A DNA stretch of 39,090 nt. It comes from Eledone cirrhosa. Its lineage: Eukaryota. A program made the position numbers and the translations under genes. The DNA lies in contig CAXHJY010000173.1 of NCBI GenBank assembly GCA_964016885.1, positions 1 through 39,090 on the forward strand. The letters run 5' to 3'. The notes under the pieces were generated by a model that made no database searches, had not been told where the DNA came from, and saw only the letters and a program-made list of their open reading frames with translations. Position 1 is the stretch's first letter, and each line of letters begins with the position of its first letter. Positions 24,414-26,390 of this stretch are shown here, piece by piece.

Positions 24414-24890
24414 ATATTGTTATACTTTGGGAGGGTCATGTTGCCAATAAGAAACACACGCACCAGTTGCTTTCACTTCAATTTATTATAATAAATTTAT
24501 AAATTTAGGAATTTATAAATTTCCGGTTGGTTGGTTGGTTGGTTCCACAACCGGATGGTTGTTTATATAAAACAAGATGGCGTATGGCGTAGGACAGAAC
24601 AAAGGAGAGGCACAAAAAACAAAGAAAAGAATCCCCAGTCACTGAAGAGGTCACAGAATGTGTGACGAAAGAACTTTGACAATATATAAACAACCATCTG
24701 GTTGTGGAACCAACCAATCAACCGGAAATTTATAAATTCCTAAATTTATAAATTTATTATAATAAATTGAAGTGAAAGCAACTGGTGCGTGTGTTTCTTA
24801 TTGGCAACATGACCCTCCCAAAGTATAACAATATCGGTTTCAACACACGTTTTCAGATAAAGAATCTTGCTAAACAAATGCAGAAACGAA
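24414..24890. mobile_element. Family B palindromic element: ~155-bp inverted arms, ~110-bp spacer, ~55-bp tail, in (TA)n
   Basis: 24414-24570 is the reverse complement of 24683-24834. The tail 24835-24890 matches the reverse complement of 25920-25965. Confidence 0.85.
24638..24680 (+). ncRNA. Minimal type I hammerhead ribozyme motif (family B)
   Basis: gtca-CTGAAGA-g-GTCACA-gaatg-TGTGAC-GAAA-gaac-TT-tgac. Stem I is gtca/tgac and stem II is 6 bp. Confidence 0.8.
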
Positions 24891-25371
24891 ATATATATAT
24901 ATATATATATATATATATACTTATATATACACACTCATATATATACATAACTAGATATGTATATATGAATAAATATATATATATATATATATATATATAT
25001 ATATATATATATATATATATATATATATATAAATAGATTTGTGTGTGTGTGTGTGTGTGTGTGTGTGTGTGTGTGTGTGTGTGTGTGTGTGTGTGTGTGT
25101 GTGTGTGTGTGTGTGTGTGTGCGTGTGTAATATTATATTGTTATTCCACGTCTCTCATTTTCGGTCATCAGACTATTATCGTTCGAAGATCGAAAACATG
25201 AAACTCAAAATATTTGTGAATATTAAACTTAATTCAGCATTCAGTTGTAGCGTTTGTTTTGGCTCACAATCAAATAGCCACATGTTTAGCAGTGGTGGTA
25301 CAGGCAGTGGATGTGGTGCTGGTATTGGTTGTGGTGCTGCCATTAATTGTCTTATATATATATATATATTC

Positions 25372-25582
25372 CGTTGCTTAAACCATTTTGTTTGTTACCC
25401 TAACGTCCCCTTTATTTACGTGTCCCAACGACTTTTTTTAGCCGTTGTTCGCACCAACCTGAGGCATATGGCCCTTAAAGCGATGAAATGCCTGGGACGG
25501 TTGGAGGGTCACTGATGAAGGACTCACTTTTTCATATGCACCACCATTTGCAACGGGCAGCCATCATTATTATCATATTTAC
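25372..25582 (+). mobile_element. Family D TA-flanked repeat, second copy
   Basis: Near-identical to 8139-8348. Confidence 0.75.
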
Positions 25583-25612
25583 ACATATATATATATATAT
25601 ATATATATATAT

Positions 25613-25670
25613 AGTTTCAGAAGATCCCGTTAAGCAATTCTGCTTAAACTTTAATCTGTTCTTATAATAT
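25613..25670 (-). mobile_element. Family F fragment
   Basis: gaagatccc.ttaag...gcttaaactttaatctgtt is the reverse complement of 29750-29805 with a deletion. Confidence 0.6.
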
Positions 25671-25686
25671 TCTGATAATATATATA

Positions 25687-25800
25687 GGGTGTAGTAAAAA
25701 CCAGGAAGTACTCGATACTTGGGGCATGAGAGTGGGGAATATGAAAAGATTCATGTCCCCGACGCCGGAGCTCAGCCATCGAGTACCTGAATCTTTTGAT
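25687..25800 (-). mobile_element. Diverged family E element
   Basis: The minus strand reads aaaagattca...ggctgagctccggcgtcgggg..tgaatctttt.atattccccactctc...aagtatcgagtac...cctggtttttactacac. Confidence 0.65.
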
Positions 25801-25919
25801 ATATATATATATATATATATATATATATATATATATATATATATATATATATATATATATATATATGTATATATATATATATATATATATATATATATAT
25901 ATTATATATATATATATAT

Positions 25920-26390
25920 TAGTTTTGCGAGGTTTTTGATATGAAATCGTGTGTCGAAACAAATATTGTTATAAATATTATATTTGTTATAACAAATATT
26001 GTTATAAATAAATAAATAAATAAATAAACAGACTAAATAAAGATGGCGTAGGCATACAATACAACAGGAGGAAATATAATAGCACCACTGACGATGTTGC
26101 AGATGTGCAACGAAAGAACTTTGTTAGACTATATATATATATATATATATATATATATATATATATATATATATATATATATATATATATATATATATAT
26201 TTGTGTCTATATTATATCTGTGTTTTTGACCGTTGGTCAGTCAATGCTAACATTGAGGACCGAATCAATTAAATTAACCGATATAAAAGACACAGAAGCG
26301 AAAACCAACCAAACAGTGAGTGTGTTCTGTTATTAATTCTGGCAATATTATTACACAAATATGACCCTCCCCAAGTATAACAATATATAT
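25920..26390. mobile_element. Family B element (tail on left, collapsed arm, internal TA expansion)
   Basis: Shares aagatggcgta, gaaagaactttg and atgaccctccc.aagtataacaatat with 24414-24890. Confidence 0.75.
26084..26125 (+). ncRNA. Minimal type I hammerhead ribozyme motif (family B)
   Basis: acca-CTGACGA-t-GTTGCA-gatg-TGCAAC-GAAA-gaac-TT-tgtt. Stem II covaries with the 24638 copy. Stem I has one mismatch. Confidence 0.75.

What the first reader, a model, noticed from the sequence alone, without database searches (positions are those of the whole stretch)
24638..26125. Compensatory substitutions in family B hammerhead stem II
GTCACA/TGTGAC (24650-24666) versus GTTGCA/TGCAAC (26096-26111) shows two double substitutions that preserve pairing. 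N7 varies freely (A, C; T at the 3220 copy), as expected for a hammerhead. Both copies have one extra base between A9 and G10.1, a known variant also seen at 8640. In the 24.4-kb copy the ribozyme sits in the unpaired spacer between the inverted arms, so it would remain free to fold.
Basis: partly seen in the sequence, partly recalled or inferred. Interest (0 to 1): 0.7.

Follow-up and report, generated by a model that had tools for sequence, protein, structure and literature searches.

The report
Penelope hammerhead with fossil pairing steps
These two stretches are end pieces of two related Penelope-like jumping genes, and each carries a likely self-cutting RNA of a known kind; thousands of other copies in the genome preserve in-between forms that suggest one stem changed a letter at a time while staying paired.

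Summary
Observation confirmed; the class is known. Both motifs are minimal type I hammerheads in the pseudo-LTRs of two sister Penelope-like element families, B1 and B2 (RT plus GIY-YIG ORFs 65% identical; about 26,000 exact-pattern copies in the genome).

The two double substitutions are fixed family differences, not independent events. The B2 lineage keeps copies with in-between stems, CA/TG > CG/TG (G.U) > CG/CG > TG/CG (U.G) > TG/CA. Their order follows flank markers (Spearman 0.74-0.84), and wobble forms outnumber mismatch forms (at least 62 vs 19). A third pair, in stem I, also covaries.

One departure from the published consensus: loop 3 is AA, AG or GA in the large subfamilies, never palindromic, so the predicted dimer helix is weak.

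Cleavage is untested. None of 99 copies begins at the predicted cut. The 'free spacer' is a chance truncation (7 of 25 armed copies), and the 3220 copy has four lesions, so it is no clean control.

The scan earlier noted other Penelope-hammerhead repeats in this genome, but its look-ups returned neither this sequence nor this path.

The parts
24414..24569 (-). Inverted, 5'-truncated arm of the B1 insertion; mirrors 24683-24834 and ends at the short 3' end next to (TA)n
24584..24834 (+). B1 pseudo-LTR, solo and 5'-truncated; 93% identical to both pLTRs of the full-length copy L106
24638..24680 (+). B1 minimal type I hammerhead: stem I 24638-41/24677-80; core 24642-48; extra G 24649; stem II 24650-55/24661-66; GAAA 24667-70; helix III A-U and G-C with loop AA 24672-73; predicted cut after U24676
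   Evidence: the cut site is inferred from hammerhead numbering
24809..24888 (+). Start of the element's ORF (ATG 24809); 24831-24888 is the 58-nt optional 'tail', followed by (TA)n
   Evidence: the same sequence opens the ORF region of L106
25919..25973 (-). Inverted tail piece at the 5' side of the B2 insertion
26006..26385 (+). B2 pseudo-LTR, solo, with an expanded internal (TA)n; ORF start ATG 26361; short 3' end
   Evidence: match to L036, where B2 lies 3' of an RT frame
26084..26125 (+). B2 minimal type I hammerhead: stem I CA/UG 26086-87/26122-23, then a C.U mismatch and an A-U pair; core 26088-94; extra U 26095; stem II 26096-101/26106-111; helix III with loop AA 26117-18; predicted cut after U26121
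3187..3385 (+). Decayed copy of the older B2 lineage (B1-like 5' arm of stem II); G5A, C11.1U, C.C mismatch in stem II, broken first pair of stem I

Best explanation
The two motifs are minimal hammerhead sequences inside truncated pseudo-LTRs of two sister Penelope-like retroelement families, likely kept by selection in the master elements as a weak self-cutting RNA that would need a second copy or the element's own protein to fold. SHOWN: both lie just 3' of an RT + GIY-YIG ORF in longer copies and about 130 nt (B1) 5' of the ORF start; a full-length copy carries two of them in direct orientation about 4.08 kb apart; insertions end at one of two fixed 3' sites 58 nt apart, mostly next to (TA)n. 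INFERRED: selection acted on pairing in the masters, and stem II went from the B1-like state to the B2 state in four single transitions through G.U pairs. PREDICTED: with only two pairs and a 2-nt loop, helix III cannot close in a monomer; two pLTR copies in one transcript would form a shared helix III with a tandem purine mismatch in the middle, probably helped by the ORF protein, and would cut after U17 to release unit-length RNA. The window's own copies are dead-on-arrival fragments with no ORF and likely no function.
For: Parent element: ORFs with RVT_1 (E 4e-4 to 8e-3, below Pfam's cut-off) and GIY-YIG (22.5 bits against a cut-off of 22.6) lie upstream of B1 and B2. [quoted passage not shown] 29 of 30 loci found by the endonuclease protein carry the pLTR, 26 of them with an intact core. 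Selection: B1 and B2 ORFs share 44 of 84 fourfold sites (52%), yet all 13 core positions are identical (0.52^13 = 2e-4). Over 13 hand-picked representative copies, 92.9% of cells pair and three pairs change on both sides (stem II pairs 3 and 4, stem I pair 4); the slid controls give 19-46%. Positions the hammerhead leaves free do vary by subfamily: N7 is A, C, U or G; position 17 is U or A, with A in 95, C in 3 and G in 2 of the first 100 of 5,790 non-U matches. Path: flank score rises along CA/TG, CG/TG, CG/CG, TG/CG, TG/CA (Spearman 0.84 with markers I chose, n=66; 0.74 unsupervised, n=69). Divergence falls from 6.4% to 4.6% to 2.0%. TG/CG is 62 of 100 listed (111 matches) against CG/CA 19 of 52. 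CG/TG is 11 against CA/CG 3 in the same interval; CA/CG totals 8 and CG/CG 28 in the genome. 3' ends: 52 tail, 47 short, of 99.
Against: No cleavage data. 0 of 99 B1 copies chosen by a 3' motif begin within 4 nt of the predicted cut (nearest +5), so insertions show no footprint of cut RNA. Loop 3 is not palindromic: the dimer helix scores +2.4 kcal/mol for AA, -0.4 for AG and -1.7 for GA, against -5.0 for a palindromic control. The window's B2 copy folds with its core paired away and stem I unformed (P about 0). B1 stem I drops to P 0.07 in the 24630-24890 context. Rfam does not recognise the motif. The three middle states are not ordered among themselves (CG/TG vs CG/CG p=0.43; CG/CG vs TG/CG p=0.07), and 11 vs 3 alone is p=0.057. 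22 double-mismatch CA/CA copies exist, more than simple decay predicts. The genome patterns fixed the core, so they cannot test core conservation. Pfam scores are sub-threshold and PDB gave no match.
Confidence: 0.75

Rival explanations
1. The motif no longer cuts. It descends from a hammerhead, but the masters keep it as a folded protein-binding or translation-control element in the 5' UTR/pLTR.
For: Non-palindromic loop 3 and weak dimer helix; no insertion starts at the cut; hammerhead mutants of the anole element still insert in vitro and no RNA reads end at its cut site (PMC11167929).
Against: All 13 catalytic-core positions are kept between families whose fourfold sites are 52% identical. 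No subfamily with G at position 17 was seen (2 of 100 listed). A15.1-U16.1 and G15.2-C16.2 are invariant in 13 of 13 rows.
Confidence: 0.15
2. The motif is a real hammerhead, but the 'intermediate' stems are not former masters. They come from A-to-G RNA editing of the stem before reverse transcription, from decay after insertion, or from recombination between old and young subfamilies.
For: Both wobble states are one A>G step from a large family. A>G exceeds T>C in the middle group (2.2% vs 1.4%). A hyper-edited-looking copy exists (L108). 3 of 16 TG/CG copies have young flanks. CA/CA (22 of 52) and TG/TG (28 of 100 listed) chimera-like states occur.
Against: CG/TG copies have later flanks than CA/TG (p=0.002) and TG/CG copies have earlier flanks than TG/CA (p=5e-5), so they are not a random sample of either parent. 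A 1.5-fold strand bias is too small for a 3-fold or larger excess. CG/CG is too rare (28) to feed them by decay.
Confidence: 0.3
3. The 24.4-kb copy is a functional unit in its own right: a hairpin RNA that presents an active ribozyme in its loop.
For: Folding 24405-24840 leaves stem II (P about 1) and stem I (P 0.62-0.67) formed inside the loop.
Against: Inverted truncated arms are a standard by-product of Penelope-like insertion (PMC8557442). The arm overlaps the motif in 18 of 25 armed loci. The copy has no same-family partner in direct orientation and no ORF in the window.
Confidence: 0.04

Closest known systems
Minimal hammerheads (min-HHR) of metazoan Penelope-like elements, variant with a small helix III (Cervera and De la Pena 2014, PMC4209133; parts 1-2 of 4 of the text read, plus the alignment rows in supplement file 2; file 1 could not be searched)
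   Same: Type I topology, location in the pLTR, 6-bp helix II, 2-4-bp helix I, extra base between 9 and 10.1, G10.1-C11.1, a 2-nt loop 3 as in the Oikopleura, Adineta(1) and Drosophila rows, many covarying families per genome, mostly solo truncated copies.
   Different: Loop 3 is AA, AG or GA, where the paper's consensus is palindromic. B1 has G as the extra base (consensus H, although the Nasonia row has G). No cephalopod row appears in the alignment rows seen.
Neptune / Nematis clades of EN+ Penelope-like elements (Craig et al. 2021, PMC8557442; passages read)
   Same: [quoted passage not shown]
   Different: The tail is 58 nt rather than 30-40. Neptune versus Nematis was not resolved (no reference proteins, no tree).
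PAc Poseidon element of Anolis (PMC11167929; passages and part 2 of the main text read)
   Same: Hammerhead in the pLTR near the ORF start; two fixed 3' ends that define a tail; no sign that cut RNA is the insertion template.
   Different: Here the ORF starts about 130 nt after the cut rather than inside stem II, and a Zn-finger linker is present.
Metazoan non-LTR retrozymes (PMC7229834, passages; bioRxiv 10.64898/2026.07.22.740005, part 1 of 5)
   Same: Type I hammerhead with a weak helix III; link to Penelope-like elements.
   Different: No tandem array of non-coding units was seen; these are truncated ends of an autonomous ORF-bearing element.

Membership tests
Hammerhead ribozyme (type I) | Core C3 U4 G5 A6 N7 G8 A9 and G12 A13 A14, with A15.1-U16.1 | tested here: met
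   (not met in the decayed 3220 copy)
Hammerhead ribozyme (type I) | Helix II closed by G10.1-C11.1, with covariation | tested here: met
   98.7% of cells paired, 2 pairs change on both sides
Hammerhead ribozyme (type I) | Helix I flanking the cut | tested here: inconclusive
   4 bp in B1; 2 bp plus a mismatch plus 1 bp in B2; pair 4 covaries G-C/A-U; pair 3 unpaired in 8 of 13 rows; B2 stem I not predicted to form
Hammerhead ribozyme (type I) | NUH triplet at the cut | tested here: met
   CUU in both window copies; CUA subfamily; G at 17 in only 2 of 100 listed non-U matches
Hammerhead ribozyme (type I) | Match to an Rfam hammerhead model | tested here: not met
   no hammerhead family at E up to 10
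Hammerhead ribozyme (type I) | Mg2+-dependent self-cleavage | not testable with these tools
   indirect genomic footprint negative: 0 of 99 copies start at the cut
PLE min-HHR (Cervera and De la Pena 2014) | Located in the pLTR of a Penelope-like element | tested here: met
PLE min-HHR (Cervera and De la Pena 2014) | Extra nucleotide between 9 and 10.1 | tested here: met
PLE min-HHR (Cervera and De la Pena 2014) | Complementary 15.2-16.2 | tested here: met
   G-C in 13 of 13 rows; the search patterns fixed these two positions
PLE min-HHR (Cervera and De la Pena 2014) | Palindromic loop 3 when present | tested here: not met
   AA in about 20,900 matches; GA in 92 of 100 listed of 4,071; AG in 80 of 100 listed of 994, with AU in 11 scattered over several backgrounds
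EN+ Penelope-like element, Neptune/Nematis type | [quoted passage not shown] | tested here: met
   open frames of 995 and 1005 aa; Pfam hits weak, below cut-off
EN+ Penelope-like element, Neptune/Nematis type | CX2-5CxxC linker and CCHH motif | tested here: met
   read from the B1 translations against the definition; the histidines were assigned by eye
EN+ Penelope-like element, Neptune/Nematis type | Direct/inverted pLTRs, optional tail, (TA)n targets | tested here: met
EN+ Penelope-like element, Neptune/Nematis type | RT phylogeny places it in Neptune or Nematis | not tested
   no reference PLE proteins were fetched
Non-LTR retrozyme | Tandem non-coding units, each with a hammerhead | tested here: not met
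   solo or two-armed pLTR fragments of a coding element in the loci read

The most novel reading that the evidence does not exclude
This lineage uses a hammerhead whose dimer helix III is built on tandem purine-purine mismatches instead of a palindrome, tuned AG > AA > GA across successive master elements, and it works only as a protein-clamped double hammerhead. The genome also holds a copy-by-copy fossil record of an RNA helix crossing two fitness valleys through G.U pairs, so every intermediate can be synthesised and its cleavage rate compared with its copy number.
Probability: 0.35. Interest if true: 0.5.

Novelty: new variant of a known kind. Interest (0 to 1): 0.3.

Why it matters
Hammerheads in Penelope-like elements are known, but what they do is still open (PMC8557442 and PMC11167929 both say so). 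This family is young (0.9-2.4% divergence in the newest B1 subfamilies) and very abundant. It supplies a natural allelic series for stem II, loop 3, N7 and position 17, ordered in time by flank markers. That makes two questions cheap to test: whether selection on these motifs is selection for cleavage, and whether the dimer model survives without a palindrome.

Tried and rejected
1. My first idea was that both stems arose by CpG decay from a CG/CG ancestor, which would make the covariation cheap. Rejected: B1, L019 and the L045 group all have CA/TG, CA/TG copies are the most diverged, and CpG transitions in the middle group are only about 1.5-2 times other C>T/G>A rates.

2. Search for subfamilies with a changed pair 2 of stem II: only 7 scattered matches.

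3. Rfam: microsatellite-driven miRNA noise, no hammerhead. PDB search with the ORF: nothing.

4. Expression: no RNA holder listed. The runs laid are contigs of unrecorded kind, so they say nothing on expression or RNA ends; they only pointed to the loop-3 variant and showed related sequence in two other coded organisms.

5. Footprint of cleavage in 5' ends: a first script returned nothing through a parameter error; the redone test was negative.

6. A B1/B2 mixed dimer in the window (1,446 nt apart, same strand): cross-paired stem I gives only 2 pairs each way, judged by eye; not pursued.

7. Literature searches for a stepwise wobble path in retroelement ribozymes, for imperfect dimer helices and for octopus hammerheads returned no such report in the listings. 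The library lacks most subscription papers. From recall, viroid double hammerheads can have unpaired bases in the shared helix III, which tempers the novelty of loop 3.

Full report
1. Observation. All stated sequence facts hold. Stem II is GTCACA/TGTGAC at 24650-24666 and GTTGCA/TGCAAC at 26096-26111, each preceded by CTGANGA plus one extra base and followed by GAAAGAACTT. The inverted arms around the first copy are real. The window is a whole 39-kb contig of a 3.0-Gb, microsatellite-rich genome; earlier AI notes call it octopus-type, which I did not test. The shared pattern has 15,138 exact matches and the reversed control none. Three further, disjoint patterns add 5,790, 994 and 4,071 matches, about 26,000 in all. 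Tallies from the listings (first 100 rows unless stated) were counted by eye.

2. What it is. In longer copies each motif lies a few hundred bases 3' of a frame ending in a GIY-YIG domain. Copies with 995- and 1005-codon open frames exist, and L106 has the full layout pLTR - ORF - pLTR with two hammerheads in direct orientation about 4.08 kb apart. [quoted passage not shown] B1 and B2 are sister families, 65% identical over 377 residues. The window holds no ORF beyond the first codons: tblastn found nothing, and 24809-24888 encodes the ORF's first 27 residues. Of 99 B1 copies picked by a 3' motif, 47 end at the short site and 52 at the tail end 58 nt further. This fits the two reverse-transcription start sites shown for the anole element (PMC11167929). 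Each window insertion has one arm of each kind.

3. Is the pairing selected? Single genomic copies drift neutrally, so only differences between masters count. Fourfold-degenerate sites of the two ORFs are 52% identical (44 of 84), while the 13 core positions are all kept. Four substitutions among 12 stem positions fall into two whole pairs by chance 3% of the time (a post hoc figure). The rows are related, so the shuffle figure is not a probability. N7 and position 17 vary by subfamily as a hammerhead allows. As a non-circular check, 26 of 30 loci found by protein have an intact core, 3 are altered and 1 lacks the pLTR.

4. How the double substitutions arose. B1, L019 and the L045 group all carry CA/TG at pairs 3-4, so this is the ancestral state. 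Within the B2 lineage, copies exist with CG/TG, CG/CG and TG/CG. Markers outside the motif order them from CA/TG to TG/CA: Spearman 0.84 with ten markers I chose after seeing the alignment (96 of 125 copies scored, 66 in the five states), and 0.74 on an unsupervised first component (104 of 125 rows kept, 69 in the five states). A flank-only tree is ladder-like. Divergence from group consensus is 6.4%, 4.6% and 2.0% for old, middle and young. Wobble states outnumber mismatch states: TG/CG at least 62 versus CG/CA 19, and CG/TG 11 versus CA/CG 3 over the same interval, with 8 CA/CG in the genome. I infer four single transitions through G.U pairs. Against this: the middle states are not ordered among themselves, the samples were chosen by stem state, the tree is short and weakly resolved, both wobble states are one A>G step from a large family, and 22 CA/CA copies are unexplained (some look like local duplicates). 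I put the master-intermediate reading at about 0.65.

5. The odd feature. The published consensus has a palindromic loop 3 (PMC4209133 text and supplement rows), which lets two copies form a fully paired helix III. Here loop 3 is AA in most copies, AG in the oldest B1 subfamily (7.2% divergence) and GA in the youngest (0.9%). Palindromic loops appear only scattered over several backgrounds. Nearest-neighbour energies for the dimer helix are +2.4 (AA), -0.4 (AG) and -1.7 (GA) kcal/mol, against -5.0 for AU. So the motif meets the other consensus features and fails this one, and I file it as a variant. Another survey says the 'vast majority' of such loops are palindromic (PMC3088659, passages), which leaves room for exceptions.

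6. Mechanism. Most likely a weak ribozyme that cuts after U17 only when two pLTR copies of one transcript share helix III, probably with help from the ORF protein. Precedent: Schistosoma min-HHRs were inactive as monomers and weak as dimers, and the anole motif cleaved only with protein. The role would be to release unit-length RNA from read-through transcripts. Cleavage does not seem to set insertion ends: 0 of 99 copies start within 4 nt of the cut, 43 extend beyond the stretch examined, and the rest are spread out. All of this step is inference; no activity or expression was shown.

7. The motif does fold in the hairpin loop in silico, but arms overlap it in 18 of 25 armed loci, so its freedom here is chance. 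The 3220 copy is an older B2-lineage copy with four lesions. The B2 window copy prefers a fold that pairs its core away.

8. Verdict. Real, selected at the level of master elements, and of a class described in 2014. Two modest additions: the stepwise record in stem II and the non-palindromic purine loop 3. Papers seen: PMC4209133 (parts 1-2 of 4; supplement file 2 part 2 and passages; file 1 not searchable and may bear on loop 3), PMC8557442 (passages), PMC11167929 (passages and part 2 of the main text), PMC7229834, PMC3088659 and PMC13282606 (passages; the last has no mention of hammerhead or ribozyme), bioRxiv 10.64898/2026.07.22.740005 (part 1 of 5; supplements closed). Interest 0.3.

Noticed in passing
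window 8629-8664 (+): A textbook minimal hammerhead of another family (no loop 3, 4-bp stems, extra A at 8640), matching the published PLE consensus.
   Followed up: partly
window 8514(-), 12796(-), 13240(-), 13393(+), 14210(+), 16407(-): A further repeat family with CUGAUGA ... GAAA around an irregular stem II; 13145-13488 is a two-armed palindrome of it.
   Followed up: no
L108 (3' pLTR, minus strand) and L306: Copies with dense A>G changes on the sense strand, as expected from RNA editing before reverse transcription.
   Followed up: partly
window 26088-26092 with 26123-26127: In young B2 copies with N7=C and a U three bases after the cut, the core can pair with the 3' strand of stem I and block the active fold; possibly a switch.
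   Followed up: partly
L045-L074, around the motif: In the B2 lineage stem I seems to continue past a short bulge into a 5-bp helix, a possible loop 1 for tertiary contact; seen by eye, not supported by folding of the window copy.
   Followed up: no
G000 contigs C22-C28: 11 of the 22 double-mismatch CA/CA copies lie on these few contigs; some look like local duplicates.
   Followed up: no
window 7621-7776, 8821-9016, 16872-17026, 19478-19677, 23054-23243: Dispersed SINE-like repeat in five or more copies.
   Followed up: no
window 22730-22886, 28875-29062, 30328-30409, 38028-38220; 32887-33142; 33148-33421; 28735-28840: Several other palindromic (fold-back) repeat families, often beside (TA)n, that may be further two-armed Penelope-type insertions.
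   Followed up: no
L034:5120-6232 (-): A different GIY-YIG-like frame next to a B1 element.
   Followed up: no
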